NCBI GenBank assembly: GCA_039812725.1
Contig: JBDIBD010000001.1
Span: forward strand, 3,550-67,549
Direction: 5' to 3'
Length of the DNA stretch: 64,000 bases
Source: Vicinamibacteria bacterium
GTDB taxonomy: Bacteria; Acidobacteriota; Vicinamibacteria; Fen-336
Positions 35,794 to 51,478 of this stretch are shown piece by piece. The notes beneath the pieces were generated by a model. That model did not search any database and had not been told where the DNA came from. It saw only the letters and a list, made by a program, of their open reading frames with translations. The translations under genes and the position numbers were made by a program. Position 1 is the stretch's first letter. Each line of letters starts with the position of its first letter.

Positions 35794-36359
35794 CCCGCAG
35801 CCAGCTCGAGCATGTGTTGCGGGCCGCGGCTGCCATCAGCGAGTGCTCGACGATCATGGTGGTCGGAAGCCAGGCCATCCTCGGTGAGCACCCCGACGCG
35901 CCCCCGGAGCTGCTCGTCTCGATGGAGGTCGACATCTACCCGCTCGAGCGCCCGGAGAGGGCCGACCTGATCGACGGCGCCATCGGCGAGGTGTCCGCCT
36001 TCCACGAGACCTTCGGCTACTACGCGCAAGGCGTGGGCCCCGAGACGGCGACGCTGCCAAGGGGCTGGGAGCGGCGGCTTGTACGGATCGTCGCCAGCCC
36101 CGCGGTCGGCCTGTGTCCCGAGACGCACGACTTGGTCCTGTCGAAGTACGCCGCTGGGCGGGAGAAGGACCGAGACTACGTCCGCGCCGCCGCACGCCAT
36201 GCACTTGTCCGGCAGGATGTGCTGCTCGCGAGGCTCGAGGACCTGCCCATCACCGAAGAGCACAGGATCCGCCTTCGCGGCCTCATCGGACAGGATTTCG
36301 CCCCCGGCCACGGGCTGGAGCAGTTCCAGACGGAGCCCGGGCCCGACCGGGAGCGCTGA
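35790..36359 (+). CDS. putative nucleotidyltransferase-fold protein (DUF6036-like); C-terminal 14 aa encoded by the palindromic repeat element
   Basis: MVVGSQAILGEHPD...MEVDIYP NTase-like; ends ...GLEQFQTEPGPDRER inside repeat copy A. Confidence 0.5.
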   Translation: MTRSQLEHVLRAAAAISECSTIMVVGSQAILGEHPDAPPELLVSMEVDIYPLERPERADLIDGAIGEVSAFHETFGYYAQGVGPETATLPRGWERRLVRIVASPAVGLCPETHDLVLSKYAAGREKDRDYVRAAARHALVRQDVLLARLEDLPITEEHRIRLRGLIGQDFAPGHGLEQFQTEPGPDRER

Positions 36360-36390
36360 CCGCGTCAGCGCCCCCGGGCCGGGACCGGCG
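36314..36390. repeat. GC-rich palindromic repeat element copy A (core GCGCTGACCGCGTCAGCGC, TGA on both strands)
   Basis: Seen in sequence; 8-bp perfect arms GCGCTGAC/GTCAGCGC flanked by CCCGGGCCCGACCGGG / CCGGGCCGGGACCGG arms. Confidence 0.7.
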
Positions 36391-36464
36391 AGCGGGTCAA
36401 TGTGGTCCTGGAGCACGGCCCACACCCGCGCCTCGACGGTCAGCAGCGCTACACTGCATGGGGC

Positions 36465-37052
36465 ATGGCGACCACGAGTCAGCGACCCACGGACGCCGAT
36501 CTTCTGGCGCTACCGCGTGTCGGCAAACACGAGGTGCTCGAGGGCGTGGTCCGCGTGAGACCAGCGAGCTGGGCTCACGAAGAGATCGTGGCCCGGATCA
36601 TCTACGAGCTCTCTGCGCACGTCCGAGCCAACCGGCTCGGGACCGTTCTCGGGTCCAACACGCTCTACTGCCTGCCTGGCGGCAACCAGCGCGCCCCCGA
36701 CGTGAGTTTCGTCGCCGCCGGCAGGCTCCAGCAAGCCGGAGCTGGCCCGTTCCCGCAGCTCGCCCCCGACCTCGCCGTCGAGATCCTATCCCCCGGACAG
36801 AGCCCCCGAGCGGTCGGAGATGCCGTCGGTGAGTATCTGGCCGCGGGAGTCCGCCTCGTTTGGGTGATCGACCCCGCCAAGCGTTGTGCGGCCTCGTACC
36901 GCTCGCTCACCGACGTGCAACACGCCGAGCTGGGTGGCTACCTCGACGGTCACGACGTCCTTCCCGGGCTCCGCTGCGCCCTCCAGGATCTCCTGCCGAC
37001 CCCTGGCCTGGAGCAGTTCGGGCCGGAACCGGGGCCCGACCGGGAACGCTGA
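36465..37052 (+). CDS. Uma2 family endonuclease (DUF820, PD-(D/E)XK-like)
   Basis: 196 aa; typical Uma2 layout; ATG at 36465; C-terminus ...GLEQFGPEPGPDRER lies in repeat copy B. Confidence 0.75.
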   Translation: MATTSQRPTDADLLALPRVGKHEVLEGVVRVRPASWAHEEIVARIIYELSAHVRANRLGTVLGSNTLYCLPGGNQRAPDVSFVAAGRLQQAGAGPFPQLAPDLAVEILSPGQSPRAVGDAVGEYLAAGVRLVWVIDPAKRCAASYRSLTDVQHAELGGYLDGHDVLPGLRCALQDLLPTPGLEQFGPEPGPDRER

Positions 37053-37080
37053 CCGCGTCAGCGACTCCGGTCCAGCTCCG
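37001..37080. repeat. palindromic repeat element copy B (ACGCTGACCGCGTCAGCG) providing stop codons for convergent genes 36465..37052(+) and 37058..37747(-)
   Basis: TGA at ~37050-52 (+) and TCA at ~37058-60 (= TGA on minus) both sit inside the palindrome. Confidence 0.7.
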
Positions 37081-37747
37081 GCGCGGGGCCCTCCAGGACT
37101 TCTCGCACCGCCGCCTCGACCGGGTCGATGTGGTCGTGGAGCACGGCCCATACGCGCTCCGGCTCGGCCACGGCGTAGCCGTGGATCAGGACGTGCCTGA
37201 GAGCCGTGATCTGCTCGGCTGGGATTTCCGGGTGCTCGGCCTTGAACCTCGGGCTCAGCTTGTACACCGCCTCGCCCAAGATGGTGAGGCAGCGTTCGGC
37301 GGCGAGCCGCTTCTCGTCCTGGGCGAGGTACGCCTCCCGCGTGACACCCGTGAGAACCAGGCGGGCCTTCGCGATGGCGCTGAGCACGTCCTGGAGGCGC
37401 TCCCGGTCGGTCATCCCCTCTTCGCCGGTGTCCGCGTCCGGCAGTTCGTCGAGCGGGCGCGCCTGCGCCAGGATCTTGTGGTGTCGCCCGGGCTCGAGGG
37501 TGTTGCGGGTGACGACGTCGACACGGCGGCCAAGGATCGCCTCAGCCTCGTCGTGGAAGGCTGCGATCTCGACCGCGCTGACGTCCGGGGGCGGATCGAC
37601 GAGGAGGTCCACGTCGCTGTCGGGCCGAGCCTGCCCGCGCGCGACGGAGCCGAACACGAGCACCGGGCCCATGCGCCGACGCTGCGCCGCGGCGGCCAGC
37701 GCGCGAGCAGCTGACGCCGTGATGACATTCACGCTCGGGCCCTTCAT
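37058..37747 (-). CDS. fused MNT-HepT protein (N-terminal minimal nucleotidyltransferase, C-terminal HEPN/DUF86)
   Basis: GSVARGQARPDSDVDLLVD (MNT motif); RHVLIHGY (HepT Rx4HxY); single 229-aa polypeptide. Confidence 0.75.
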   Translation of the reverse strand: MKGPSVNVITASAARALAAAAQRRRMGPVLVFGSVARGQARPDSDVDLLVDPPPDVSAVEIAAFHDEAEAILGRRVDVVTRNTLEPGRHHKILAQARPLDELPDADTGEEGMTDRERLQDVLSAIAKARLVLTGVTREAYLAQDEKRLAAERCLTILGEAVYKLSPRFKAEHPEIPAEQITALRHVLIHGYAVAEPERVWAVLHDHIDPVEAAVREVLEGPAPELDRSR

Positions 37748-37914
37748 GGTGCAATCACTCTACACCGCCACTCATGGAGCCGCTCCAGCCGGAACCCGGC
37801 CCGCACGCGAGTTGGCGGGCATGGAGCTGCTCCGGCCAGGGCCCAGCGGCGGCCGGGGACCCTGGCCCGGGGCCGGTCCCGCCCTCGATCCAGGTGGGCG
37901 TAGGCTACGGCCGC

Positions 37915-38289
37915 ATGAGAGAGGACTTGGAGGCGGAGCTGGTCGCACTCGCGCCGCCCTGGTTCGGCCAGGGGTTCCGCTTCTACTGCGGCGACGGCTG
38001 GTACTCGCTGCTGCGCGACCTGGTGGTGGCCCTGCGCGCCGTGGATCCTCCGGCCGGCTTCGAGATCACCCACGTGAAGGAGAAGTTCGGAACGCTCCGC
38101 GTCAGGTTCGAGGGCGGCTCGCAAGCCGTCGCGGACATGGTCATGGCCACGCAGCTTCGGAGCGAGAGCGTCTGCGAGGAGTGCGGCGCCTCCGCCGAGA
38201 CGACGCTGCGCAAGCTCGGTGGCCGCTGGGCAACACGATGCGGGCGGTGCCACCTGGGCGCGCAGACCGAGACCGCAACGCGTAGTTGA
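37915..38289 (+). CDS. hypothetical protein with C-terminal CxxC...CxxC zinc ribbon
   Basis: 124 aa; ...CEECGASAETTLRKLGGRWATRCGRC; internal ATG chosen (track ORF starts at 37774 through a Pro/Gly-rich leader). Confidence 0.4.
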   Translation: MREDLEAELVALAPPWFGQGFRFYCGDGWYSLLRDLVVALRAVDPPAGFEITHVKEKFGTLRVRFEGGSQAVADMVMATQLRSESVCEECGASAETTLRKLGGRWATRCGRCHLGAQTETATRS

Positions 38290-38341
38290 CGGACCTGAGG
38301 CGCCAACGGCACCAACTTGCCAAGCGTGGCATATTGGTGCC

Positions 38342-38974: not shown

Positions 38975-39822
38975 GAGAGGACCTGCTGGCCCTGGCTCGG
39001 AGGCACGAGACCCCGGACGCGCGCCTGAACGTGGTCCGCGAGTGGCTCCAGGCCGCGATACTCAAGGGCCTCGAGCGCCGTGGGGCCATGGCAGCGCTGG
39101 CCTTCCACGGCGGCACGGCCCTGCGCTTCGTCTACGGCATCGGCCGCTACTCGGAGGACCTGGACTTCGCCTGGCACGGACCCCGGACGGCGGGCCAGCC
39201 CGCCGGCTGGCTCGGCCAGGTCAAGACCGACCTGTCCAACCTCGGCATCGCCTGTCGGGCGGGAGTCGCCGAACGGGAGCGCATGGTCGAGGCACGCTTC
39301 GAGTTCCCGGCGCTTGGGAAGGATCTGGGCCTGGAGGCCCTCACCGTCAAGGTCGTGATCGCCCTCCGCGCACCCGCCGCGGCTGGCCTCGAGGTGTCCA
39401 CGGTCACGCGCTTCCAGACGCTGTCGGTGAGGCACCACGACCGGCCGACCTTGTTCGCGGGGAAGCTCCACGCGCTCCTCCATCGGCGCCACACCAAGGG
39501 CCGCGACTACTACGACCTGCTCTGGTACCTGGGCCACCCCAGCTGGCCGGAACCGAACCTGCCGTTCCTGAACGACGCCCTGCGCCAGGTCGCCTGGAAG
39601 GGCGGAGAGCTGACGGCCCCGACCTGGCGCCCTGCCGTGCTCGCCCGCCTACAACGCGTGGACTGGGCCGCCGCCCGCCGTGACGTCGAACCGTTCCTCG
39701 AAGACCCCGAGGAGGCGCGCCTGCTCACGCGCGACGCCCTCGAACGGGCGCTTGCTGCGCCTCAGCGGACCTTCAGCATGCGTGACCTCGCCGATCCTCC
39801 CGGATCCGACCGGGAGCGCTGA
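38971..39822 (+). CDS. abiEii: AbiEii/DUF1814 nucleotidyltransferase toxin
   Basis: FHGGTALRFVYGIGRYSEDLDF signature; AAGGAG RBS; ATGA overlap with abiEi; C-terminus ...PPGSDRER from repeat half-copy C. Confidence 0.85.
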   Translation: MREDLLALARRHETPDARLNVVREWLQAAILKGLERRGAMAALAFHGGTALRFVYGIGRYSEDLDFAWHGPRTAGQPAGWLGQVKTDLSNLGIACRAGVAERERMVEARFEFPALGKDLGLEALTVKVVIALRAPAAAGLEVSTVTRFQTLSVRHHDRPTLFAGKLHALLHRRHTKGRDYYDLLWYLGHPSWPEPNLPFLNDALRQVAWKGGELTAPTWRPAVLARLQRVDWAAARRDVEPFLEDPEEARLLTRDALERALAAPQRTFSMRDLADPPGSDRER

Positions 39823-39830
39823 CGGCGGCA
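39800..39830. repeat. palindromic repeat element, left half-copy C (CCGACCGGGAGCGCTGAC)
   Basis: Seen in sequence. Confidence 0.5.
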
Positions 39831-39897: not shown

Positions 39898-41079
39898 ATG
39901 TCGGACAGGGTCTACATCTGGCAGCAGCCCGACTGGCCACGGTGGCGCTACGACGCCGCGCACGTCAGCGGCGCTCTGGCCCAGGCGCACCACGCCCAGG
40001 GCCACCTCCTCGGGCGTACGGGCGACCTGGGCTTCGAGGTGCAGGGCCGGGCCCGACTCGACGCGCTGACCGAAGAGGTCCTGAAGACCAGCGCGATCGA
40101 GGGCGAGACGCTGCGGGTCGAGGCTGTGCGTTCGTCCGTCGCGCGGCGCCTGGGCGTCGACATCGGGGCCCTCGGCCCGGCCGACCGGCACGTGGACGGT
40201 GTCGTGGACATGGTGCTCGACGCGACCGCGCGCCATGACCAGCCACTCACGGCGGAACGCCTTTGCGCCTGGCACGCGGCGCTGTTTCCCACGGGCTACA
40301 GCGGCCTCCGGAAGATCCGCGCGGGGGCCTGGCGCGACGACGCCTCGGGACCCATGCAGGTCGTGTCCGGCGCCCTGGGCCGGGAGGAGGTCGTCCACTA
40401 CCAGGCCCCGCCGGCCGCCGGGCTCGAGGCCGACCTGGCCGCCTTCCTGGCCTGGTTCAACTCGGACGAGCCGGGCGACCCGCTGATCAAGGCCGGCCTG
40501 GCGCACCTGTGGCTCGTGACGCTGCACCCGTTCGACGACGGGAACGGCCGCATCGCTCGCGCGGTGGGGGACATGGCGCTGGCTCGCGCCGAGCGCTCCT
40601 CCCAGCGCCTCTACAGCCTCTCCGCCCAGGTGCAGCGCGAGCGCGCGGACTACTACGCCGTCCTCGAGCGCACCCAGGCCGGCTCGCTCGACGTGACCGA
40701 CTGGCTCGCCTGGTACCTGCGCTGCCTGCTGCGGGCGCTGCAGGGCGCCGAGCTGACCTTCGACGCGGTGCTGCACAAGGCCCGCTTCTGGCAGCGCTGG
40801 GCCGGCACGACCTTCAACGCCCGCCAGGTGAAGCTGCTCAACCGGCTGCTCGACGGGTTCGACGGCAAGCTGACCAGCAGCAGGTGGGCGGCGCTCGCCA
40901 GGTGCTCGCACGACACCGCCCTGCGCGACATCTCGGCCCTGCTCGAGCGCGGGGTGCTGGTGCGCGCCGCGGCCGGCGGCCGCAGCACCCACTACCTCCT
41001 CGGTGACGCGCCCTCGGGCTTGGACCGCGGCATGGAGCAGTTCCAGCCGGAGCCCGGCGGGACCGACCGGGAACGCTGA
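39898..41079 (+). CDS. Fic family protein (N-terminal DUF4172 + Fic/DOC domain)
   Basis: Fic motif HPFDDGNGRIARA; 393 aa; C-terminus ...MEQFQPEPGGTDRER from repeat half-copy D. Confidence 0.85.
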   Translation: MSDRVYIWQQPDWPRWRYDAAHVSGALAQAHHAQGHLLGRTGDLGFEVQGRARLDALTEEVLKTSAIEGETLRVEAVRSSVARRLGVDIGALGPADRHVDGVVDMVLDATARHDQPLTAERLCAWHAALFPTGYSGLRKIRAGAWRDDASGPMQVVSGALGREEVVHYQAPPAAGLEADLAAFLAWFNSDEPGDPLIKAGLAHLWLVTLHPFDDGNGRIARAVGDMALARAERSSQRLYSLSAQVQRERADYYAVLERTQAGSLDVTDWLAWYLRCLLRALQGAELTFDAVLHKARFWQRWAGTTFNARQVKLLNRLLDGFDGKLTSSRWAALARCSHDTALRDISALLERGVLVRAAAGGRSTHYLLGDAPSGLDRGMEQFQPEPGGTDRER

Positions 41080-41085
41080 GCAGGC
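41034..41085. repeat. palindromic repeat element, left half-copy D
   Basis: GAGCAGTTCCAGCCGGAGCCCGGCGGGACCGACCGGGAACGCTGA. Confidence 0.5.
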
Positions 41086-41770: not shown

Positions 41771-41792
41771 ACGCTAGCTAGCAGAATGCTAG
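41771..41792. promoter_or_regulatory. GCTAGC-repeat palindromic motif (CGCTAGCTAGCAGAATGCTAGC) just upstream of vapB; candidate operator/promoter for VapB autoregulation
   Basis: Seen in sequence; RHH antitoxins bind palindromic operators (established); coordinates approximate. Confidence 0.35.
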
Positions 41793-41860
41793 CACCGAGA
41801 CGTGCAGCCGGCCACCTGCCGCGAGCGGCGCCCACGCTGGCGCGGGCGTCCCTGCGCCCC

Positions 41861-41935
41861 CGCGTCAGCGGCCCCGGTCCGGCTCCCGGGAAGGGGGTGG
41901 GGCCAGGTCGGCCATGGTCATCCGGCGGACCGGCA
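41861..41935. repeat. palindromic repeat element, right-half long variant copy E (CGCGTCAGCGGCCCCGGTCCGGCTCCCGGGAAGGGGGTGGGGCCAGGTCGGCCATGGTCATCCGGCGGACCGG), not attached to a gene
   Basis: Same ~72-bp sequence recurs at 43866-43935 and 51403-51475. Confidence 0.65.
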
Positions 41936-42046
41936 GGAGGCTGGGCCGTGTACGCCGCCTTTCACTCATCGGCCCGCCTGGCGCAGTGTTGCCAATTGGT
42001 GCGACATCGGGTAATATTCCTACCCACAAGCAGACTCTGTAGCAAC

Positions 42047-42844: not shown

Positions 42845-43832
42845 CCGACAGACGCTCGACTCGCTCGCTGCCCAGACGGGCTTCCGGCCAGGCACGCTGG
42901 AGAAGGTGGTCCGTCTCGGCCAGCTCGCGGCCGACATCAGCCGGCAGCCAGTGCTCTCACGAGTGCTCGCCCTGAAGGGAGGCACAGCGCTCAATCTCGG
43001 CTTCGGCCCCCCGAGCCGCCTGTCCGTGGACCTCGATCTCAACTACGTCGGGAGCGCTGACCGGGAGGCAATGCTCCGCGACCGGCCCATCGTCGAGCGG
43101 CTGATCGAGCAGATAGGGAGGGGCCAGGGCTACCGCCTGCAGTGGTCGGCCGACGAGCACGCGGGGCGCAAGGTGTACCTGCGCTTCCAGAGCCCGCTCG
43201 GCGGCGCCGACGACGTGCAGATCGACTTGAACTTCCTCTTCAGGGTTCCGCTCGGCGAGCCCGGCGTGAGGGAGCTTTGGCAGCCAGGTGACCTTGCCCG
43301 GCCCAGCCTTCGCATGGCGGCCTTCGTTGAGATCGCGGCGGGCAAGCTCGTCGCCACCCTCGCGCGAGGCCTCCCGCGGGATCTCTATGACACCGCACGC
43401 CTGCCGCGGCTCGATGCTGACAACTGGGCCCACCCAAGCCTTAGGCGCACGTTCGTAGCCTTGGCCGGTGTGCTCGACAGACCGTTGACGGCCTACAACG
43501 AAGACCGCATGCGGGTCACGGATGAGCAAGTGCGCCAGCAGCTGGATCCTATGCTCGCACGGCACACCCGGATCTCGGCCGCGGATCTCAATGCGGGTGC
43601 CTGGCAGGTTCTCTCTCCACTGCTGGACCTCACCGCCGCCGAACGGGAGTACACGGAGCGACTGCAGCGCGGTGAACTACAGCCGGACCTGCTGTTCCCG
43701 GACGACAGCGAGATGGCCAAACGGCTGAGCCATCATCCGGCCCTTCTCTGGAAGATGGCCAACGCCCGAGAGCACGTGGCGAAGCGCCTGGAGCGGTTCC
43801 CTCCTGCACCACGGGGCGATTTCGACCGCTGA
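42834..43832 (+). CDS. abiEii: AbiEii/DUF1814 nucleotidyltransferase toxin
   Basis: LKGGTALNLGFGPPSRLSVDLDLNY signature; 332 aa. Confidence 0.8.
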   Translation: MNVSRQTLDSLAAQTGFRPGTLEKVVRLGQLAADISRQPVLSRVLALKGGTALNLGFGPPSRLSVDLDLNYVGSADREAMLRDRPIVERLIEQIGRGQGYRLQWSADEHAGRKVYLRFQSPLGGADDVQIDLNFLFRVPLGEPGVRELWQPGDLARPSLRMAAFVEIAAGKLVATLARGLPRDLYDTARLPRLDADNWAHPSLRRTFVALAGVLDRPLTAYNEDRMRVTDEQVRQQLDPMLARHTRISAADLNAGAWQVLSPLLDLTAAEREYTERLQRGELQPDLLFPDDSEMAKRLSHHPALLWKMANAREHVAKRLERFPPAPRGDFDR

Positions 43833-43844
43833 GCGCTGCGCCGG

Positions 43845-43935
43845 CGGATCCGACCGCGAGCGCTGACCGCATCAGCGGCCCCGGTCCGGCTCCCGGGAAG
43901 GGGGTGGGGCCAGGTCGGCCATGGTCATCCGGCGG
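43845..43935. repeat. palindromic repeat element copy F (GCGCTGACCGCATCAGCGG + long right variant); supplies stop and last ~20 codons of the minus-strand ATPase gene
   Basis: Seen in sequence. Confidence 0.65.
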
Positions 43936-44098
43936 ACCGGCTCCGGAAGCTCGAGCGCGAAGCGCCACGCGGGCCGCACCGGCACCTGGCGGCCGTCGCA
44001 CAGCTGCAGCGGCTCGGATTCGAGGCGTGACACGACCAGGGGTGTCGCCGAAGGGTGCTCCTCGAGCGCCTCGGCGAGGGCGCGCGACTCGCGCTCCC
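43866..44098. repeat. ~230-bp segment (3' end of ATPase gene + repeat) duplicated at 51400-51623 (~93% identity)
   Basis: Direct comparison of both stretches in the window. Confidence 0.7.
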
Positions 44099-45263
44099 GC
44101 GCCTGCTCCGAGCTCAGGTCCGCACACGACTGCACGAGCAGCGTCTCGTCGCCCCGAACCGCCAGGAAGTCCACCTCATAGCCCGAGCGCGTGCGGACGT
44201 AGCGCAGCTCGTACCCCCGCCGGCGCAGCTCGAGGAAGACCGCGTTCTCGAGCAGGTGCCCGGTGCCCTCACCCGCGCGGGCATAGAGCCTGGCGAGGCC
44301 CGTGTCGACCGCATAGACCTTGCGCGGGTTCGAGTGCTCCACCCGCAGCGAGCTGGCGGCGATCGGGACGGTGAACACCAGATAGGCGTCCTCCAGGTAC
44401 TCCAGGTACTCGTACACGGTGTTCTTGCTGACGAGCAGGCCCTGCGAGCGCATGTCGTTGTGCACACGATGCACGCTGAAGAGCCCCCCGACGTTCGCCA
44501 GGAGGCTGGCCTGCAGGTAGCGCAGCGCGGGCACGTTGGCGATGCGGTAGCGGTCCACGATGTCGCGCATCAGGACGACGCTGACGTAGCCGCGCAGGAT
44601 CTCCCGGAACGTGGCGTCGTCGCGGATCTCCTGGACCGCCGGGAAGCCGCCCTGCTGGAGGAAGAGATCGAAGGCCGACGCGAGGGTGTGCCTCTCGCCG
44701 GCCGGGGGCGGGAAGCGCTTCGGCACCGGCAGCCGGGCATGCCTGAGCGACTCGTCGAACCCGAAGGGCAACAGCTCCGTGGTCACGCTGCGACCGCGCA
44801 TGGCGGTGCCGATCTCCCGTGAGAGCAGCTTCGAGGACGACCCGCTCAGGACCACCCGCACTCCGTCGTCGAGCAGGCGCCGCACGAACGGCTCCCAGCC
44901 CGGGACGTTCTGGATCTCGTCCAGGTAGAACTGGGCCTGTTGCGGCCGCGTGGCGGGGTGCCGCCGGAAGAAGGCCTCGGGAACGAGCTGCAGCTCGTCC
45001 GCGCGCAGGCCGAGCAGACGCTCGTCCTCGAAGCTCAGGTACAGGAGCCGGTCGCGGCCTACGCCCGCGCGCTCCTGCTCCTGGATCTGCTGCAGCATGA
45101 GGGAGGTCTTCCCGCTCCGGCGCATGCCGATGACGACGTCTGCCTGGCCGGGAACGGCGGGCAGGCGGACCCTGCGGGGCGTGAGCGCTGGCAGCGACCG
45201 CGTCTCGAAGTCGGCCACCAAGGTCTCGATGACGCTGGCGCGGCCCCCGACCTGTCTCTCCAC
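43872..45263 (-). CDS. AAA+ ATPase with DUF4143 (AAA_14 family)
   Basis: 463 aa; P-loop GMRRSGKTS; DUF4143-like C-terminal region; GTG start at 45263. Confidence 0.8.
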   Translation of the reverse strand: MERQVGGRASVIETLVADFETRSLPALTPRRVRLPAVPGQADVVIGMRRSGKTSLMLQQIQEQERAGVGRDRLLYLSFEDERLLGLRADELQLVPEAFFRRHPATRPQQAQFYLDEIQNVPGWEPFVRRLLDDGVRVVLSGSSSKLLSREIGTAMRGRSVTTELLPFGFDESLRHARLPVPKRFPPPAGERHTLASAFDLFLQQGGFPAVQEIRDDATFREILRGYVSVVLMRDIVDRYRIANVPALRYLQASLLANVGGLFSVHRVHNDMRSQGLLVSKNTVYEYLEYLEDAYLVFTVPIAASSLRVEHSNPRKVYAVDTGLARLYARAGEGTGHLLENAVFLELRRRGYELRYVRTRSGYEVDFLAVRGDETLLVQSCADLSSEQARERESRALAEALEEHPSATPLVVSRLESEPLQLCDGRQVPVRPAWRFALELPEPVRRMTMADLAPPPSREPDRGR

Positions 45264-45370: not shown

Positions 45371-46174
45371 ATGGGCGTGGATGCGGGGATCCGCGCCTCT
45401 GACGCAGTGGACGACCTTGCGGCCCGGGGACGGTACTCCTTCACCACGGCAGAGATGCGCCGCCTGCTCGGCACCTCGGACGTGGCCACGCGCGCGGCCC
45501 TGCGCCGCCTCACCGCCAAGGGCAAGCTGGCCATGCCCGCTCGTGGCTTCCACGTCATCGTCCCGCCCGAGTACCGCACCCTGGGCTGCCTTCCCGCAGC
45601 GCAGTTCGTGCCCGACCTCATGCGGCACCTGCGGCTGCCGTACTACGCCGGCCTGCTGACGGCCGCCGCGTATCACGGCGCCAGCCACCAGGCGGTCATG
45701 GTCTTCCAGGTGGTCCTCCCCAGGACCCGCCGCCCGATCGAGTGCGGCCGCGTCCGGGTCGAGTTCGTGGCGCGCAAGAACGTCGACGCCGTGAAGTGCC
45801 AGGAGATGGCCACGCCGCGTGGGATGCTCCGCGTCTCCGCGCCCGAGGGCACCGCCCTCGACCTGGCCGGCTACCCGCACCACGCCGGCGGCCTGTCGAG
45901 CGTCGCTACCGTCCTGGCCGAGCTGCGCGAGCGCCTCGACCCGGCCGGGCTCGCACGCGCGGCCGAGTCCGTCCCGGTGCCCTGGGCGCAGCGTCTGGGC
46001 TTCCTCCTCGACCTGGTCGGCGGGGGGGACTGCACGCCCCAGCTCGCGGCGCACGTGGCCCGCCGGGCCAAGGACTACGTCCTCCTCGCCCCCGGCCGAC
46101 CGGCCCAGAACGCCACCAGGGACAAGCGCTGGCGCGTGCGGGTCAACGCACCCGTCGAGCCCGACGACCTGTGA
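45371..46174 (+). CDS. abiEi: type IV TA system AbiEi-family antitoxin
   Basis: 267 aa; AbiEi N-terminal HTH-like region (AEMRRLLGTSDVATRAALRRLTAKGKLAMPARGFHV). Confidence 0.75.
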   Translation: MGVDAGIRASDAVDDLAARGRYSFTTAEMRRLLGTSDVATRAALRRLTAKGKLAMPARGFHVIVPPEYRTLGCLPAAQFVPDLMRHLRLPYYAGLLTAAAYHGASHQAVMVFQVVLPRTRRPIECGRVRVEFVARKNVDAVKCQEMATPRGMLRVSAPEGTALDLAGYPHHAGGLSSVATVLAELRERLDPAGLARAAESVPVPWAQRLGFLLDLVGGGDCTPQLAAHVARRAKDYVLLAPGRPAQNATRDKRWRVRVNAPVEPDDL

Positions 46175-47022
46175 TCCCGGCCGACTACATCGCGGAGTGG
46201 CGCACGCTCGGCCCGGCGCCCTGGCCCACCGACGCCCAGGTGGAGCAGGACCTGCTCCTCAGCCGCGCCATCGTGGCCCTCTACTCCGAGCCGGACGTCG
46301 CGAAGGCTCTGGCCTTCCGCGGAGGCACCGCCCTCTACAAGCTCTACGTCCACCCACCACGGCGGTACTCCGAGGACATCGACCTCGTGCAACGCGAGGC
46401 AGGACCCATCGGTTCCACGATCGACGCCGTGCGCCGAGCGCTCGACGGCTGGCTGGGCCAGCCCAAGCGCACCATCAAGGACGGCCGCGTGGTCATGTAC
46501 TACCGCGTGCCGGGCTCCGGCGGGCCCGAGGAACGGCTCCGCATCAAGGTCGAGGTCGACACCCGCGAGCACTTCTCCTCCTACGGCATCGTCACGCGCA
46601 CCGTGCGCATGGCCTCGCGCTGGTCTGCGGGGGAGGCTCGCGTGCGGACCTACGTCCCCGACGAGCTGCTCGCCACCAAGCTGCGAGCCCTGTACCAGCG
46701 CAAGAAGGGGCGGGACCTGTTCGACCTCTGGACGGCCTGCCAGGCCCTCACCATCGACCCGGCACGCGTGGTGCGCAGCTTCCTCGACTACATGGCCCAC
46801 GACGGACTGCGCGTGTCCAGGGCCGACTTCGAGGCCAACCTGCGCGAGAAGCTCGCCGACCCGGAGTTCTGCGCCATCGACAACCTCCTGGCCCCCGGCA
46901 CTCCCTGGAGTCCCGACCAGGCCGGCCAGCTCGTGCTCGACGCCTTCCTCCCGCTCCTCGAGCGCGAGAGGCCCGGCGTGGAGCGCTTCCGGCCAGCGCC
47001 CCGGCGCGGCCCGGAGCGCTGA
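46171..47022 (+). CDS. abiEii: AbiEii/DUF1814 nucleotidyltransferase toxin
   Basis: FRGGTALYKLYVHPPRRYSEDIDL signature; GTG overlapping abiEi stop (GTGA). Confidence 0.85.
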   Translation: MIPADYIAEWRTLGPAPWPTDAQVEQDLLLSRAIVALYSEPDVAKALAFRGGTALYKLYVHPPRRYSEDIDLVQREAGPIGSTIDAVRRALDGWLGQPKRTIKDGRVVMYYRVPGSGGPEERLRIKVEVDTREHFSSYGIVTRTVRMASRWSAGEARVRTYVPDELLATKLRALYQRKKGRDLFDLWTACQALTIDPARVVRSFLDYMAHDGLRVSRADFEANLREKLADPEFCAIDNLLAPGTPWSPDQAGQLVLDAFLPLLERERPGVERFRPAPRRGPER

Positions 47023-47153
47023 GCGGGCGAACCCTGGCCCGGCTCCGTTCGCCGTCTCCCCCGGATGGCCCCTGCTCCAGGAGGAGCGCCGGCAAGAGCG
47101 ACCGACAAGGTCCGCGGCAGTCTGTGGTATGTTCTTTTCCGAAAGGAACGGAC

Positions 47154-47741
47154 ATGAATGCCGTCCGCCTGGAACCGGGACGAGTCTATAGAACCCGCGA
47201 CCTCGCTCGCTGGACCAGCAATCCGCCACGGCTGGCCCGCCAACTCGTGCGAGAGGGCGCGCTCACGCGTCTCAGCCGTGGGCTCTTCGCGAGCCCGACG
47301 CCCAGCCGGTTCGGGCCGGCCCCCCCCACGGACACGGCCCTCTTGCGCGGCTTCCTCCACAACAGCCCCTTCGTAGTCACAGGGCCGGAGCGCTGGAACG
47401 CCCTCGGCCTCGGTACGACCGCGGTCTTCCCCTCGACGCTCGTCTACAACACCAAGCGCTCCGGCCGTTTCAGACTGGGCGGGAGGAGCTTCACCCTGCG
47501 GCGCGTGGCGTTCCCCAAGAACCCAGCGCCCGAGTGGTTCGTCGTGGACCTGCTCGAGAACGCAGCGCACGTGGGCTCCGACGCGGCCACCATCTTGGCC
47601 GCCGTGCGCGTGGCGCTGGCACAACGACGGTTCGATCCGACCGGGCTGCTCACGATGGCAGACCGCTACGGGACACGAGCCACCCTGCGGTCGATCTCCC
47701 AGGCGGTGAAGGGCGCGTCCTCACCCGAGCGCGACCGGTAG
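47154..47741 (+). CDS. AbiEi_4-like N-terminal domain protein (solo, no AbiEii partner)
   Basis: MNAVRLEPGRVYRTRDLARWTSNPPRLARQLVREGALTRLSRGLFA; AAAGGAA RBS; followed 77 bp later by a metallophosphoesterase gene. Confidence 0.6.
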   Translation: MNAVRLEPGRVYRTRDLARWTSNPPRLARQLVREGALTRLSRGLFASPTPSRFGPAPPTDTALLRGFLHNSPFVVTGPERWNALGLGTTAVFPSTLVYNTKRSGRFRLGGRSFTLRRVAFPKNPAPEWFVVDLLENAAHVGSDAATILAAVRVALAQRRFDPTGLLTMADRYGTRATLRSISQAVKGASSPERDR

Positions 47742-47817
47742 AGGCCAGCGCGCGAGCCGCCCCCGAACCACAGCCGCGCGAAGCGCCCTGCGGCCCCCAG
47801 CCTGCTACGCTTCCGCG

Positions 47818-48651
47818 ATGCCTCTCGTGCGTCCGGGCTCGAAGGGCGACAAAGTCGCGCTGGCCATCCTGGTCTGCGGCACGGCCCTCGCCCTGTACGC
47901 CTTCCTGGTCGAGCCGTACTGGATCGCGGTCACGCGGCTGCACGTCCCCGCGCCCGTCGCCCGCAAGCTCGTCATCGCGCACGTGGCCGACCTGCACACC
48001 TACGGCCTCGGCCGGCGCGAGGAGACGCTGCTCGGCCTCCTCGAGCGGGAGCGCCCCGACGTGATCGTTCTCTCCGGCGACCACCTGGTCGACGGAGACC
48101 TGCGCAGCCCGCCGTTGGGCCTCCCTGACGACCCCAGCTACGCCATGGCCGCGCCGGTCCTGCGCCGCCTCTCGGCCCCGCTCGGCGTCTACGCCGTGCG
48201 TGGGAACTGGGAGGTGGCTCGCCACACCCCCGACGAGCGCGGGTTCTACGCGGGCGTGGGCGTGCGCCTCCTCGTCAACCAGGCGGCCCAGCTTGTCCCC
48301 GGGGTCTGGCTGGCCGGCCTCGACGATGCCGGGCCGAACGCGGAGGAGGCGGCCCGCGAGGTCCCGGCGGGGGCGTACGTCGTTGCCTTCTTCCACTCCC
48401 CGGCCATCTTCGACCGCGTGGCCGGACGTTGGCCCCTGGCCCTGGCCGGACACACCCACGGGGGGCAGGTCGTCATCCCCTTCTGGGGCGCGCCGTGGCT
48501 CCCACCCGGCAGCGAGCCCTACACTGCCGGCACCTACCTCAAGCTGGAGTCGCAGCTGCACGTCAGCCGCGGCATCGGCACGGCCATCCTGCCCGTCCGC
48601 TTCGCCTGCCGGCCCGAGCTGGTCCTGGTCACCCTCACGCCGGACTCTTGA
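47818..48651 (+). CDS. membrane-anchored calcineurin-like metallophosphoesterase
   Basis: N-terminal TM helix (VALAILVCGTALALYAFLV); MPE motifs AHVADLH, GDH, GNWE, GHTHGG. Confidence 0.8.
   Translation: MPLVRPGSKGDKVALAILVCGTALALYAFLVEPYWIAVTRLHVPAPVARKLVIAHVADLHTYGLGRREETLLGLLERERPDVIVLSGDHLVDGDLRSPPLGLPDDPSYAMAAPVLRRLSAPLGVYAVRGNWEVARHTPDERGFYAGVGVRLLVNQAAQLVPGVWLAGLDDAGPNAEEAAREVPAGAYVVAFFHSPAIFDRVAGRWPLALAGHTHGGQVVIPFWGAPWLPPGSEPYTAGTYLKLESQLHVSRGIGTAILPVRFACRPELVLVTLTPDS
48541..48625 (+). repeat. direct repeat copy 1 (3' end of metallophosphoesterase gene), ~95% identical to 48922-49005
   Basis: CAGCTGCACGTCAGCCGCGGCATCGGCACGGCCAT..TGCCCGTCCGCTTCGCCTGCCGG..CCGAGCTGGTCCTGGT present twice, flanking the Phd-like gene. 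Confidence 0.7.
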
Positions 48652-48670
48652 CCGGCTCCCGGAGGCGCCC

Positions 48671-48910
48671 TTGGTCACCATCGACATTCACGAAGCCAAG
48701 ACCCAGCTCTCAACGCTGGTCGATCAGGCCGCTCGGGGCCAGGCCTTCGTGATCACGAAGGCCGGCAAGCCCCTGGTCAAGGTAACGCGGCTGGGTGCGT
48801 CCGCGCGGCCACGCCGCCTGGGCTTCCTGGCCGGCGAGATCGAGGTGCCCCACGACTTCGACCGCATGGGCGTCACGGAAATCGAGACCCTGTTCGGGAG
48901 CGACGCGTGA
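48671..48910 (+). CDS. Phd/YefM (prevent-host-death) family antitoxin, apparently orphan
   Basis: TIDIHEAKTQLSTLVDQAARGQAFVITKAGKPLVKVTRL matches Phd/VapB-Phd type antitoxin; TTG start after GGAGG; no toxin gene follows. Confidence 0.55.
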   Translation: MVTIDIHEAKTQLSTLVDQAARGQAFVITKAGKPLVKVTRLGASARPRRLGFLAGEIEVPHDFDRMGVTEIETLFGSDA

Positions 48911-48921
48911 GGGTTCAGCCG

Positions 48922-49005
48922 GGGTCACAGCTGCACGTCAGCCGCGGCATCGGCACGGCCATATTGCCCGTCCGCTTCGCCTGCCGGGTCCGAGCTGGTC
49001 CTGGT
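48922..49005 (+). repeat. direct repeat copy 2 (duplicate of 48541-48625)
   Basis: See copy 1. Confidence 0.7.
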
Positions 49006-49022
49006 AAGGTCTGGTCAGCGCT

Positions 49023-49577
49023 TCAGGGCGTCAGGGCGCACCGCCAGCTCGCCTGGTCTCTCAAGCGTCTGCAGACGGGGTCATCCGCCAGGCGTCGACA
49101 CGCGGCGACAGCCTCCGCGTCACCACCCTTCGTGCCAACCCTGTGTGAGAACACCACTCTCTCCTCCCAGGGCCCGAGGAGCTCGGCACAGTAGAGGCAG
49201 TAGAGCGCGCCGGTCTGGCAGCTGACCAACCAGGTGCCCGTGGCCACCAGCCGCCCGGACTGAACCAAGGAGCAGTCCTTCTCACCGCGGGGGATCTTGC
49301 TGTTGATCGCCGCGATGCGCGCCACGTCGTCGTGGGGATCGTCGCGGCAGAAAAGGCGCGCGAGGCGTCTGTCCCCGGAGTGGATGCCGGCGTCGGCGCT
49401 GACGACCCTGTACTCGCCGGGGGTGGGCCGTATCGGGCCACTGTGTGCGGGCGCGGCGCTCCTGAGGGCCCGCGAGAACAACGCCCGCTGGGCGGCCACG
49501 CCCAGGAGCGAGACGGCCGCCGTCACGAACACGGCGACAACGAGGGAGCCGCGCAGCGAGGCACGAGGCAGGACCAT
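49023..49577 (-). CDS. membrane-anchored Cys-rich hypothetical protein
   Basis: ATG at 49577 with GGGAGG RBS 8 nt upstream; N-terminal TM (LVVAVFVTAAVSLLGVAAQ); 184 aa. Confidence 0.5.
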   Translation of the reverse strand: MVLPRASLRGSLVVAVFVTAAVSLLGVAAQRALFSRALRSAAPAHSGPIRPTPGEYRVVSADAGIHSGDRRLARLFCRDDPHDDVARIAAINSKIPRGEKDCSLVQSGRLVATGTWLVSCQTGALYCLYCAELLGPWEERVVFSHRVGTKGGDAEAVAACRRLADDPVCRRLRDQASWRCALTP

Positions 49578-49747
49578 GGGGGGACCTCCCGGTTTGCGAG
49601 AGACCAGCCGCCGCCAAGGGTAGCACCCAGCGGTGGCCTCCCAAGGGCCCAGAACTCGGCCAAGGGGCCGTCGAGCGCCTGGCCCCCGTGCTCGCGGGCC
49701 AACGTCCACATCCCAGATGGCATGCTACGATATGCCAGGTGGTGCAC

Positions 49748-50221
49748 ATGGGCGCAGCCCCAGCCGAGCTCGAGGAGTACCGCAGGGACATCGCCGCCGG
49801 CCGCGCCGGCGCGTACCGCTTCGTCGGCCTCATGGGCCTGCCCTCGCGCGACCCGCTCGACCTCGCCAGGCGCGTGGCCAGGGGCCTGTCCTTCGCGGCC
49901 CTGGAGCGCTTCCGGCGCAACGCCGGCCTGTCCCTGAGCGAGGTGGCGGACGCCACCGTCATCCCGCTCAGCACCCTGCACCGGCGCAAGAAGGAGCGGC
50001 GGCTCGAGCCACAGGAGTCGGACCGCCTGCTGCGCGTCTCGCGTGTCTTCGGCCGCGCCCTGGAGCTGTTCGAGGGCGACAACGACGCGGCGCGGCGCTG
50101 GCTCGCCACGCCCCAGCGCGCCCTGGGCGGGGAACGCCCCCTCGACCTCGCCAGGACCGACGTCGGAGCGCGCGAGGTCGAGGCCCTGGTCGAGCGGCTC
50201 GAGAACGGCGTCCTCACCTAG
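49748..50221 (+). CDS. Xre/MbcA/ParS-like antitoxin (DUF2384) of RES-Xre module
   Basis: 157 aa; C-terminal ...AARRWLATPQRALGGERPLDLARTDVGAREVEALVERLENG matches DUF2384; AGGTGG RBS. Confidence 0.75.
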   Translation: MGAAPAELEEYRRDIAAGRAGAYRFVGLMGLPSRDPLDLARRVARGLSFAALERFRRNAGLSLSEVADATVIPLSTLHRRKKERRLEPQESDRLLRVSRVFGRALELFEGDNDAARRWLATPQRALGGERPLDLARTDVGAREVEALVERLENGVLT

Positions 50222-50228
50222 CCGCACC

Positions 50229-50690
50229 GTGCCCAGCGCCTGGCGCCTCACCAAGACCAAGTACCTGTCCACCGCCTGGGATGGCGCCGGGGCGCGCCGG
50301 GCCGGCGGGCGCTGGAACAGCCCGGGCGTGCCCGTGGTCTACACGTCGGAGACCCTGGCCCTCGCGCTCGTCGAGATCCTCGTGCACCTGCCCAGTGGCC
50401 TGCTGCCGGCCTACTCGGCCATCCCGGTGGAGTTCGACGAGGGCCTGGTGACGACCGTGCGGCCGCGCCAGCTGCCCCACGACTGGCAGGCGAGCCCGCC
50501 TCCACCCGCCACCCAGGCGCTGGGCGACGCCTGGCACGCCGCCGCCACCAGCGTCATCCTGCGTGTCCCGAGCGCCGTCGTCCCGCAGGAGTGGAACTAC
50601 GTCGTCAACCCCGACCACCCCGACTTCGCCCGCCTTCGCATCGGGACGCCACGCACCTTCCCGTTCGATCCGCGCCTCGCCAAGCCCTGA
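50229..50690 (+). CDS. RES domain toxin (NAD+-targeting RES family)
   Basis: AWRLTKTKY...AGGRWNSPGVPVVYTSETLALALVEILVH matches the RES domain; GTG start 8 nt after antitoxin stop. Confidence 0.8.
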   Translation: MPSAWRLTKTKYLSTAWDGAGARRAGGRWNSPGVPVVYTSETLALALVEILVHLPSGLLPAYSAIPVEFDEGLVTTVRPRQLPHDWQASPPPPATQALGDAWHAAATSVILRVPSAVVPQEWNYVVNPDHPDFARLRIGTPRTFPFDPRLAKP

Positions 50691-50754
50691 TTCCGCCTGC
50701 GTGGGCCCCGCGCCCAACGCGATGCCCCTTCCCACAGGCGTATCCTGTGGGGCG

Positions 50755-51360
50755 ATGTCGCCCACCTACACCGAGTACGTCGAGCTCGAAGCGCGAAGTC
50801 CCGTGCGCCACGAGTTCGTGAACGGTGAGGTGTTCGAGATGGCGGGCGGCACGCCCGCCCATGGTGCGCTCGCCTCGGCGCTGGCCCGCGACCTGGGATC
50901 TGGCCTGCGTGGCAAGCCCTGCCGGGTCTTCTCCTCCGACGTGCGGGTGTTCGTGAAGGAAACCGGCCTCGCCACCTACCCGGACCTGTGCGTCGTCTAC
51001 GGCACCCTCGAAACGACCGACGAGGACAAGGACGCGCTCGTGAACCCGGTGCTGCTGGCCGAGGTGCTGTCTCCCTCGACGGAGGCCTGGGACCGAGGCG
51101 GCAAGGCGGCGCACTACCGCCGCATCCCCTCCCTGCGCGAGATCCTGTTCGTCAGCCCTGACGGGCGGCTGGAGGTCCAGCGCCGCAGCGAGCGTGGCGT
51201 CTGGGAGCTGGTCGACGCGCGGGTCGGAGAGAGCCTCGAGCTCACGTCCCTGGGTGTCGTGCTCGACGTCGCGGAGCTGTTCCACGACCCGCTCGCCTCG
51301 GGGCCCTCTGATCTGCAGCGCCTCGCCCAGGGCCCCGGCAGGTCCACGCCGGAGCGCTGA
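50755..51360 (+). CDS. Uma2 family endonuclease (second copy)
   Basis: 201 aa; Uma2/DUF820 layout; 3' end runs into repeat copy G (…GRSTPER*). Confidence 0.75.
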   Translation: MSPTYTEYVELEARSPVRHEFVNGEVFEMAGGTPAHGALASALARDLGSGLRGKPCRVFSSDVRVFVKETGLATYPDLCVVYGTLETTDEDKDALVNPVLLAEVLSPSTEAWDRGGKAAHYRRIPSLREILFVSPDGRLEVQRRSERGVWELVDARVGESLELTSLGVVLDVAELFHDPLASGPSDLQRLAQGPGRSTPER

Positions 51361-51478
51361 CGGTCCGCGGGCCGGCAGATCCGTGGCCGCGCCCCCGCTC
51401 AGCGGCCCCGATCCGGCTCCCGGGGAGGTGGTGGGGCCAGATCGGCCATGGTCATCCGACGGACAGGCTCCGGAAGCT
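51350..51478. repeat. palindromic repeat element copy G (split variant: AGCGCTGAC - ~37-bp insert - GCTCAGCGG + long right arm)
   Basis: Seen in sequence. Confidence 0.6.

What the first reader, a model, noticed from the sequence alone, without database searches (positions are those of the whole stretch)
36314..51478. GC-rich palindromic repeat element (at least 7 copies) carrying stop codons on both strands and supplying C-terminal tails of unrelated genes
Seen: the core GCGCTGAC-CGC-GTCAGCGC, flanked by CCCGGGCCCGACCGGG-type arms, recurs at ~36314, 37001, 39800 (half), 41034 (half), 41861, 43845 and 51350. The palindrome contains TGA on the plus strand and TCA (= TGA) on the minus strand. 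At least four plus-strand genes (NTase-like, Uma2, AbiEii, Fic) end in the same encoded tail ...(L)EQF(Q/G)xEPGxDRER*. The minus-strand MNT-HepT and DUF4143 ATPase genes end in repeat-encoded ...EPDRGR / ...ELDRSR. At 37050-37060 one copy terminates two convergent genes. Inference: a REP/MITE-like element that acts as a bidirectional terminator and recombination scar between TA/Abi cassettes, and that generates chimeric 3' ends.
Basis: seen in the sequence. Interest (0 to 1): 0.7.

Follow-up and report, generated by a model that had tools for sequence, protein, structure and literature searches.

The report
Shared stop-codon tail repeat in toxin island
A short GC-rich DNA repeat forms the last 12-22 codons and the stop codon of at least ten unrelated toxin and defence genes in one variable gene island; it marks where gene cassettes are cut, copied and re-ordered, and resembles known small repeats without belonging to a described family.

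Summary
A 45-80 nt repeat ending in ...GACCGGGA(G/A)CGCTGA occurs 8 times on the + strand between 36.3 and 47.0 kb. A shorter inverted version occurs 4-5 times on the - strand. There are none in the other 48 kb, against about 1 expected by chance. It supplies the C-terminal tail and the TGA of DUF6036, Uma2, AbiEii, Fic, MNT-HepT and DUF4143-ATPase genes. Homologues elsewhere lack the tail.

The basic unit is not a palindrome. It is a directional 3' module that travels with its gene. Palindromes form only where a + and a - module abut. Two related metagenome contigs carry the same cassettes at 80-92% identity in a different order, with hybrid modules, a gene-conversion tract and gene stumps at the junctions. 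The tail peptide shows no purifying selection, yet every gene-adjacent copy is in frame.

It fails the tests for integron attC, REP and MITE. No recombinase lies in the window, and no copies were found in the public genome, metagenome, viral or plasmid collections searched.

Best reading: a lineage-specific junction repeat that is a recombination substrate and shared stop or hairpin for toxin-antitoxin and defence cassettes. Interest is moderate.

The parts
36307..36361 (+). Plus module c1: last 18 codons and the TGA of the DUF6036 nucleotidyltransferase gene (35790-36359), tail GLEQFQTEPGPDRER*
   Evidence: nhmmer E=2.9e-14; translation; Pfam DUF6036
36363..36440 (-). Inverted core plus an 80-nt stump of a HepT 3' end (frameshifted remnant). 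It forms the right arm of the perfect palindrome at 36353-36371.
   Evidence: 36389-36432 is 86% identical to 37117-37160, and 36291-36395 is 77% identical to 36984-37088; hairpin z=-2.5
36995..37054 (+). Plus module c2: tail and stop of Uma2_a (36465-37052), PTPGLEQFGPEPGPDRER*
   Evidence: nhmmer E=3.2e-14; gene call confirmed by exact database protein P0001; aligned homologues lack the tail
37058..37095 (-). Minus module: tail and stop of MNT-HepT (37058-37747), ...LEGPAPELDRSR*. It converges on c2; the two stops are 5 nt apart.
   Evidence: 2 mismatches; the Pfam HepT profile (120/120) ends 12 aa before the stop; hairpin
37773..37845 (+). Two degenerate orphan plus-module heads (37773-37799, 37818-37845) without a stop, upstream of the MNT-HepT start. 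An orphan copy lies at the same place in L019 (111-159).
   Evidence: nhmmer E=0.013 and 0.023; alignment with L019
39766..39824 (+). Plus module c3; only the last ~27 nt are well conserved. Tail and stop of AbiEii_1 (~39020-39822), ...DLADPPGSDRER*
   Evidence: nhmmer E=1.2e-7; Pfam AbiEii
41020..41080 (+). Plus module c4: 22-aa tail and stop of Fic/SoFic (39898-41079), PSGLDRGMEQFQPEPGGTDRER*
   Evidence: nhmmer E=3.6e-15; the Variovorax Fic (67% identical) ends exactly where the module begins; the same 82-nt module (91%) is fused to a PIN stump in L021
41860..41947 (-). Orphan minus module: an 88-nt stump of a minus-strand gene that is intact in L019 (178-aa protein ending ...TMADLAPPPREPDRGR*). 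Its first 75 nt are 98.7% identical to the ATPase tail, which is a gene-conversion tract.
   Evidence: (family D3)
43788..43868 (+). Diverged plus module fused to AbiEii_2 (stop 43830-43832, ...LERFPPAPRGDFDR*), followed by a partial tandem orphan copy c5 ending in TGA at 43864-43866
   Evidence: (E=1.3e-7)
43872..43941 (-). Minus module: tail and stop of the DUF4143/AAA_14 ATPase (43872-45263), ...RRMTMADLAPPPSREPDRGR*
   Evidence: exact; the PADLOC PDC-S01 profile (408/412) ends at residue 438 of 463; hairpin z=-3.2
46966..47024 (+). Diverged plus module c6: tail and stop of AbiEii_3 (~46170-47022), LERERPGVERFRPAPRRGPER*. Its 5' part is shared with the module on Uma2_c in L019.
   Evidence: nhmmer E=4.9e-9; 46955-47022 is 82% identical to L019 762-829
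51313..51360 (+). Strongly diverged plus module on Uma2_b (~50755-51360), ...LQRLAQGPGRSTPER*
   Evidence: the junction 51352-51625 is 88% identical to 43824-44098
51394..51625 (-). Minus module plus a 227-nt stump of an ATPase 3' end
   Evidence: the repeat finder D2 95%
35183..35395 (+). Uma2 3' stump (orthologue of Uma2_c in L019, 86%). It has lost its module; homology to L019 ends exactly at the module's 5' edge.

Best explanation
This is a lineage-specific junction repeat of a toxin-antitoxin and defence cassette island.

Shown:
- Each cassette's last gene, on either strand, runs in frame into a 45-80 nt GC-rich module and stops at the module's conserved ...CGCTGA.
- The module is an add-on that homologues in other organisms lack.
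- Where a plus and a minus cassette converge, the last 20-27 nt of the two modules are reverse complements. They form a strong hairpin that holds both stop codons.
- Module copies recombine with each other.

Inferred mechanism:
- Every cassette carries the same sequence at its 3' edge, so homologous recombination, gene conversion and illegitimate joins at or next to the modules delete, duplicate and re-order cassettes. These events leave gene stumps behind.
- Only joins that keep the module's TGA in frame survive. The other two frames of the module are open and would read on into the next cassette.
- The hairpins probably act as shared transcript ends at convergent junctions.
- The peptide itself is most likely a tolerated, disordered passenger.
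For: - Copy number and confinement to 36-52 kb.
- Tails are add-ons on six or more families.
- Same modules on other unrelated genes in relatives: a PIN stump in L021, and Uma2_c and a 178-aa protein in L019.
- Cassettes shared with L019 and L021 at 80-92% identity are co-oriented but in a different order. Uma2_a is followed by Xre-RES in L019 and by MNT-HepT here. VapBC is preceded by RES in L019 and by Fic here.
- Recombination between copies. A 75-nt tract at 41860-41934 is 98.7% identical to the ATPase tail, then switches to the L019-type sequence. Neighbouring tails are more alike (91% and 87%) than the tails of orthologous Uma2_a cassettes (76%), although the gene bodies are 84% identical. 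The 5' and 3' parts of modules have different nearest relatives.
- Stumps next to modules: 36363-36440, 41860-47, 51394-51625, 35183-35395.
- No selection on the peptide. Tail differences per site at codon positions 2 and 3 are 0.33 and 0.28 (0.30 and 0.29 over all modules). In gene bodies they are 0.04-0.09 and 0.16-0.29.
- Hairpins at full copies only: z from -1.9 to -3.2.
Against: - No recombination intermediate or enzyme was seen.
- 45-60 nt at 70-90% identity is a poor RecA substrate.
- About 10-11 independent gene contexts are all fused in frame. If frames were random, P is about 1e-4. All three indels among copies are multiples of 3. The explanation needs strong selection after illegitimate joins, which I did not show.
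- All long modules lie on one strand even when the cassette genes are on the other strand. A directional site-specific system would explain that more simply.
- The comparison rests on three short related contigs (1.0-4.5 kb). The rest of the source genome was not available.
Confidence: 0.48

Rival explanations
1. The modules are recombination sites of an integron-like cassette platform that uses a non-canonical site. An unidentified site-specific recombinase, encoded outside the window, excises and inserts cassettes.
For: - All long modules share one orientation in both genomes, whatever the gene orientation.
- Cassettes hold 1-2 genes, are compact, and their reading frames end inside the site.
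- The content is toxin-antitoxin and defence genes, as in chromosomal integrons.
- Cassette order differs between relatives while cassette orientation is kept.
- Modules are hybrids.
Against: - No RYYYAAC...GTTRRRY pairs occur in the window apart from one isolated weak candidate.
- The module has no conserved self-fold: consensus -3.4 kcal/mol with one covarying pair.
- No tyrosine or serine recombinase was found among the reading frames scanned in the 64 kb.
- Several cassette junctions lack a module (after RES, Mpe and the ATPase start).
- Breakpoints are not at one fixed position. The synteny break after VapBC lies 88 nt beyond the palindrome centre, and module 5' edges vary.
Confidence: 0.2
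2. One reading: a REP- or MITE-like palindromic mobile element that inserted at gene 3' ends and acts as a bidirectional terminator.
For: - Precedent exists. Coxiella QMITE1 and QMITE2 overlap gene 3' ends and supply C-terminal residues and stops (PMC5896051). Rickettsia palindromic elements insert in frame (PMC10969869).
- Full copies fold into strong hairpins.
- Orphan copies exist in non-coding positions.
Against: - There are no terminal inverted repeats or target-site duplications, and no fixed element length. Modules span 45-82 nt and their 5' parts differ.
- Most copies are halves that do not fold.
- Copies are confined to 15 kb of the 64 kb window.
- No matches with flanking arms were found among 185,579 species genomes. 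There were 0 hits in the metagenome collection and only chance 17-mers in viral contigs.
- No transposase or RAYT gene was found; the only IS is an IS21 remnant.
- No U-tract follows the hairpins.
Confidence: 0.12
3. The tail is selected at the level of the protein or of translation. It could be a shared C-terminal tag (degron or docking peptide) on the effector proteins. It could also be a pause or weak-termination signal (PPP or PEPGP, then UGA-C) that tunes toxin output. The palindromes would then be a by-product of the same coding module sitting on both strands.
For: - All 10-11 independent gene contexts are in frame.
- Indels of +3, +3 and +6 nt keep the frame, even in orphan copies.
- Strongly diverged copies (AbiEii_2, AbiEii_3, Uma2_b) keep their length, an (L/M/V)E/Q-x-(F/L) start and an (E/D)R-stop end.
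- The carriers are always the toxin or effector gene.
Against: - The tails show no coding-type substitution pattern. Position 2 changes at least as often as position 3, and codon changes among modules are 167 nonsynonymous against 58 synonymous, unlike the adjacent gene bodies.
- Orphan non-coding copies are as well conserved as fused ones.
- VapC and RES toxins in the same island lack the tail.
- Profile searches of 5.8 and 1.8 billion proteins found no wider family, although those searches had little power for a 21-column profile.
Confidence: 0.15
4. Chance or compositional artefact of a 70% GC genome, where convergent gene ends often look alike.
For: The bare 20-nt core GARCGCTGACCGCRTCAGCG does occur by chance at convergent gene ends in 17 unrelated genomes.
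Against: - Shuffle controls: 8 against 0.96, 4 against 0.09 and 3 against 0.19.
- 55-80 nt alignments at E of 1e-7 to 1e-15.
- The same modules occur in related contigs on other genes.
Confidence: 0.01

Closest known systems
Integron attC sites and gene-cassette arrays (sedentary chromosomal integrons, and attC clusters that lack an integrase)
   Same: - Array of small 1-2 gene cassettes rich in toxin-antitoxin genes.
- A similar short repeat at the 3' end of each cassette, all in one orientation.
- Reading frames that end inside the repeat.
- Cassette order that differs between relatives.
   Different: - No RYYYAAC/GTTRRRY boxes.
- No self-folding site.
- No integrase in the window.
- Minus-strand cassettes carry their own inverted copy of the core.
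- Not every junction has a site, and breakpoints are not fixed.
MITEs that overlap coding ends: Coxiella QMITE1/QMITE2 and Rickettsia palindromic elements (PMC5896051, PMC10969869)
   Same: A short palindromic repeat supplies C-terminal residues and the stop codon, or in-frame segments, to unrelated genes. It forms stable stem-loops.
   Different: - Those elements are dispersed genome-wide, have defined ends or terminal inverted repeats, and derive from insertion sequences.
- This repeat is confined to one cassette island. Most copies are half-units without a fold, and there is no sign of transposition.
REP/BIME elements and terminator-like repeats such as pneumococcal SPRITE (PMC2229807, PMC10969869)
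   Same: GC-rich imperfect palindromes at gene 3' ends and between convergent genes, with likely effects on transcript ends and recombination.
   Different: - REPs are extragenic, number in the hundreds and are linked to RAYT transposases.
- Here the copies are translated, few and local. No GTAG-type head is visible and no RAYT gene was found.
Orphan toxin-immunity cassette arrays of CDI and Rhs loci (from my own knowledge)
   Same: Cassettes keep a short conserved junction sequence that lets homologous recombination swap modules. Truncated stumps accumulate.
   Different: In those loci the conserved piece is the 5' end of one protein family (the pre-toxin region). Here it is a 3' tail shared by unrelated families.
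Chaperone-addiction C-terminal extensions of antitoxins in toxin-antitoxin-chaperone systems (from my own knowledge)
   Same: A short modular C-terminal extension found on unrelated toxin-antitoxin proteins.
   Different: Those extensions sit on antitoxins, are conserved as peptides and bind a SecB-like chaperone. Here the tails sit on toxins or effectors and show no peptide-level constraint.

Membership tests
Integron attC / cassette array | Inverted core sites R'' (RYYYAAC) and R' (GTTRRRY) 50-150 nt apart at each site | tested here: not met
   A pattern scan of both strands of the whole window found one isolated weak candidate at 18912-18961 and none in the island
Integron attC / cassette array | Each site folds on its own into an imperfect hairpin | tested here: not met
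   The consensus fold of 11 modules is -3.4 kcal/mol. Half copies fold no better than shuffles, with z from -1.6 to +0.7. Only junctions with a convergent minus-strand module fold.
Integron attC / cassette array | Sites share one orientation along the array, and cassette order is variable | tested here: met
   All significant long-module hits are on one strand in the window and in L019. Shared cassettes are co-oriented but re-ordered.
Integron attC / cassette array | IntI-type tyrosine recombinase with attI at the array edge | tested here: inconclusive
   No recombinase domain was found in any reading frame scanned in the 64-kb window. The source contig is 87.5 kb and the rest was not available. 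attC clusters without an integrase are also known.
REP/BIME (RAYT-associated) | 20-40 nt extragenic palindrome with a conserved 5' head (GTAG type), present in many dispersed copies | tested here: not met
   Copies are mostly coding, have no such head on reading the sequences, and are confined to 36-52 kb of the window. Whole-genome copy number is not testable.
REP/BIME (RAYT-associated) | A RAYT (IS200/IS605-like) transposase gene in the genome | not testable with these tools
   None was found among the window reading frames scanned. The genome is not available.
MITE | Terminal inverted repeats, target-site duplication and a defined element length | tested here: not met
   Module lengths span 45-82 nt with different 5' parts. 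Only the central 20-27 nt are inverted. No flanking direct repeats appear.
MITE | Dispersed copies in the genome and in related genomes | tested here: not met
   No copy outside the island in the window. In species genomes only bare-core chance hits were found. Two metagenome scans gave 0 hits. Viral contigs gave only chance 17-mers. Plasmids gave nothing.
Intrinsic (rho-independent) terminator | GC-rich hairpin | tested here: met
   36311-36400, 37004-37095, 43825-43915 and L019 3385-3480 have minimum free energies of -53 to -58 kcal/mol and z from -1.9 to -3.2. This applies at full copies only.
Intrinsic (rho-independent) terminator | U-tract after the hairpin | tested here: not met
   No terminator-like site was called at any copy. 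T-runs are absent in the sequence.
Xer/pdif modules | 28-nt XerC-spacer(6)-XerD sites in alternating orientation flanking the modules | not tested
   By reading only: the palindrome centre is 3-5 nt, and the long modules do not alternate in orientation.

The most novel reading that the evidence does not exclude
The island is a cassette platform of a new kind. A translated 3' module that carries the stop codon serves as the recombination site for capturing and shuffling toxin-antitoxin and defence cassettes. It would work like an integron, but with an unrelated site and an unidentified recombinase.
Probability: 0.2. Interest if true: 0.8.

Novelty: new variant of a known kind. Interest (0 to 1): 0.5.

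Why it matters
- If the modules are recombination substrates, they show a simple way for a defence and toxin-antitoxin island to shuffle cassettes without a classical integron.
- They also show how a repeat can systematically rewrite the C-termini of unrelated proteins.
- For annotation, about 12-22 C-terminal residues of at least ten proteins here derive from the repeat, not from the protein family.
- The strict in-frame rule, combined with a neutrally evolving peptide, is unexplained. It is testable and bears on how cassettes are formed.

Tried and rejected
- Canonical integron attC: pattern scan negative.
- Rfam: no family matched at gathering thresholds, and only three irrelevant sub-threshold hits appeared.
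- Conserved fold inside the module: none.
- Public collections:
  - The palindrome core in 185,579 species genomes gave 17 hits, all without arms, so they are chance matches.
  - Two metagenome patterns gave 0 hits.
  - A viral-contig scan gave 66 hits that match only the 17-mer searched.
  - Plasmids gave only a Variovorax Fic gene and one chance hit.
- Tail-only protein profiles:
  - The search of the 5.8-billion-protein set gave one hit, P0122, which proved to be a real PIN stump fused to a module.
  - The 1.8-billion representative set gave only two low-complexity hits.
  - Both searches have little power for a 21-column profile, so they say little about how rare the tail is.
- Exact look-ups of window proteins did not find the source record.
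- The apparent copy at 1670-1726 lies inside a methyltransferase gene, and the one at 40047 lies inside Fic. I rejected both as chance.
- A mini-ORF reading (MEQFQPEPGPDRER with its own start codon) was considered. The start codon is ATG, GTG or CTG and a ribosome-binding site is visible in only two copies, so I did not pursue it.

Full report
**Context**

The window is 70% GC. Positions 33-52 kb form an island of toxin-antitoxin and single-gene defence cassettes:
- a Schlafen/AlbA_2 gene and a Uma2 stump;
- an antitoxin with a DUF6036 nucleotidyltransferase;
- Uma2_a (PADLOC PDC-S03);
- MNT-HepT on the minus strand (PDC-S09);
- three AbiEi/AbiEii pairs;
- Fic (SoFic);
- VapBC on the minus strand;
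- a DUF4143/AAA_14 ATPase on the minus strand (PDC-S01);
- a metallophosphoesterase and a lone Phd antitoxin;
- Xre-RES and Uma2_b.

The flanks hold a TrwC relaxase, GmrSD, a NERD-kinase, a MoxR-VWA set, an Rhs/Tc toxin and an IS21 remnant. The nearest non-relative Uma2 homologues are named Vicinamibacteria or Acidobacteria. The source is therefore probably an acidobacterium, but that is an inference.

Yes.
- The exact palindrome and its two near copies give 3 matches against 0.19 expected.
- The left-arm core gives 8 against 0.96.
- The minus-strand core gives 4 against 0.09.
- A profile of the 60-nt arm finds six copies at E of 1e-7 to 1e-15 and two degenerate ones. All lie between 36.3 and 47.0 kb.
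- The Uma2_a and MNT-HepT stops sit 5 nt apart in one hairpin.

**The tails are add-ons**

- The Variovorax Fic (67% identical) ends at ...MDA*, exactly where the window Fic continues for 22 more residues.
- Apart from the query itself and one close relative, the 120 listed Uma2 homologues cover only 86-92% of the query. The eight homologues I aligned end at ...DLL, before the tail.

**What is the unit?**

It is not a palindrome.
- The long module (45-82 nt, consensus ...ATGGAGCAGTTCCAGCCGGAGCCCGGGCCCGACCGGGAGCGCTGA) is directional. Every significant copy is on the + strand here. In the related contig L019 every copy is on the Uma2 strand, including copies that lie upstream of minus-strand genes and are not translated.
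- The right arm is a 20-27 nt inverted version of the module's end. It is always the tail of a minus-strand gene: MNT-HepT and the ATPase here, a 178-aa protein and HepT in L019, or a stump of one.
- Minus-strand tails form their own sub-family...(T)MADLAPPPSREPDRGR*, shared by unrelated proteins.
- Palindromes therefore arise where two tail modules converge.
- Only those junctions fold well (z from -1.9 to -3.2). Half copies do not, and the module has no conserved fold of its own.

**Evidence for recombination**

Two related metagenome contigs were reached through proteins P0002 and P0122. They share cassettes with the window at 80-92% nucleotide identity, all co-oriented, but in a different order:
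- L019 reads MNT-HepT | Uma2_c | Uma2_a | Xre-RES | VapBC | 178-aa gene | ... | HepT.
- The window reads Uma2_c stump | DUF6036 pair | Uma2_a | MNT-HepT | AbiE_1 | Fic | VapBC | stump | AbiE_2 | ATPase | ... | Xre-RES | Uma2_b.

Homology blocks end at or next to modules.
- The Uma2_c match stops exactly at the module's 5' edge.
- The Fic-type 82-nt module is joined to a 30-residue PIN stump in L021.
- The AbiEii_3 module's 5' part (LERERP...) is on Uma2_c in L019, while its 3' part resembles its own neighbours.

Other signs of exchange between copies:
- The stump at 41860-41947 is 98.7% identical to the ATPase tail for 75 nt, then switches to the L019-type sequence. This is a gene-conversion tract.
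- Neighbouring tails are 87-91% identical. The tails of the orthologous Uma2_a cassettes are 76% identical, although the gene bodies are 84%.
- Stumps of HepT, the ATPase, Uma2 and the phosphoesterase lie at junctions.

**Peptide or DNA?**

- Gene bodies compared between the window and L019 show the usual coding pattern. Differences per site are 0.04-0.09 at codon position 2 and 0.16-0.29 at position 3.
- The tails do not show it: 0.33 against 0.28. Across all modules the values are 0.30 against 0.29, with 167 nonsynonymous and 58 synonymous codon changes.
- Orphan copies are as well conserved as fused ones.
- So the amino-acid sequence is not under purifying selection.
- Yet every module next to a co-oriented gene is fused in frame. 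That is about 10-11 independent contexts, with P about 1e-4 if frames were random. The three indels seen are +3, +3 and +6 nt.
- The other two frames of the module are open (read from the sequence).
- My reading is that only joins that use the module's TGA survive. This is an inference, and the in-frame rule remains the least explained feature.

**Comparison with known families**

- Canonical attC boxes are absent.
- No Rfam family matches.
- No recombinase or transposase lies in the window other than an IS21 remnant.
- No terminal inverted repeats, target duplications or U-tracts are present.
- The module was not found in 185,579 species genomes, the JGI metagenome collection, IMG/VR or PLSDB.
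- Precedents for repeats that supply C-terminal residues and stops exist: Coxiella QMITEs and Rickettsia palindromic elements.
- The array behaviour is closest to integron cassette arrays.
- The element is a member of none of these families.

**Verdict**

This is a real, lineage-restricted junction repeat that closes the reading frames of unrelated cassette genes and is a demonstrable recombination substrate.
- The descriptive part is solid.
- The mechanism is open: general recombination (0.48), an unknown site-specific system (0.20), a translated function (0.15) or a mobile MITE/REP (0.12).
- I rate it a new variant of a known kind, with interest 0.5.

Noticed in passing
window 24612-24733 (+) and 61614-61735 (-): A 122-nt inverted repeat (81%) lies 37 kb apart. 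It encodes the shared last 38 residues (68% identical) of two otherwise unrelated reading frames, 23967-24728 (TPR) and 61619-62254. This is another case of a shared 3' end, and the pair brackets the whole island.
   Followed up: partly
window 28383-31343 and 32862-33644: A Sel1-repeat protein with a C-terminal trypsin-like domain contains a long array of 108-nt tandem repeats (28.6-30.5 kb). A smaller Sel1 paralogue lies inverted 2 kb downstream.
   Followed up: no
window 48542-48629 and 48917-49005; L021 343-786: The 3' end of the metallophosphoesterase gene is duplicated (92%) after a Phd antitoxin (48672-48910) that has no toxin partner here. In the related contig L021 the partner is a 30-residue PIN stump fused to the Fic-type module.
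   Followed up: partly
window 35397-35422: A separate near-perfect palindrome, GGCCCCGGCCGAC|GTCGGTCGGGGCC, lies directly after the stop of the Uma2 stump. It shares the GGCCCGACCG-like motif with the module arms and could be a centrally deleted copy.
   Followed up: no
window 41773-41794; L019 ~3350-3372: A conserved operator-like palindrome (GCTAGCTAGCAgAATGCTAGC) lies upstream of VapB in both genomes.
   Followed up: no
window 53153-54329: IS21 remnant at the right edge of the island: a C-terminal fragment of the IstA transposase followed by IstB.
   Followed up: no
window 2048-23693: The left flank looks like a conjugative-element and defence context. It holds a 1482-aa NERD protein with two kinase domains, GmrSD, an AAA_5(MoxR)-DUF5682-VWA(CoxE) trio, a pentapeptide-repeat protein, DUF2274 and a TrwC relaxase.
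   Followed up: no
window 37774-38289: The 171-aa reading frame begins inside two degenerate module heads (MEPLQPEPGP...). Its real start is probably the M near residue 48. It has no Pfam or PADLOC match.
   Followed up: no
window 47155-47741: An AbiEi-like antitoxin gene has no adjacent AbiEii and ends in ...SSPERDR* with a TAG stop. This may be a further decayed tail module. It is 82% identical to L021 1-325.
   Followed up: no
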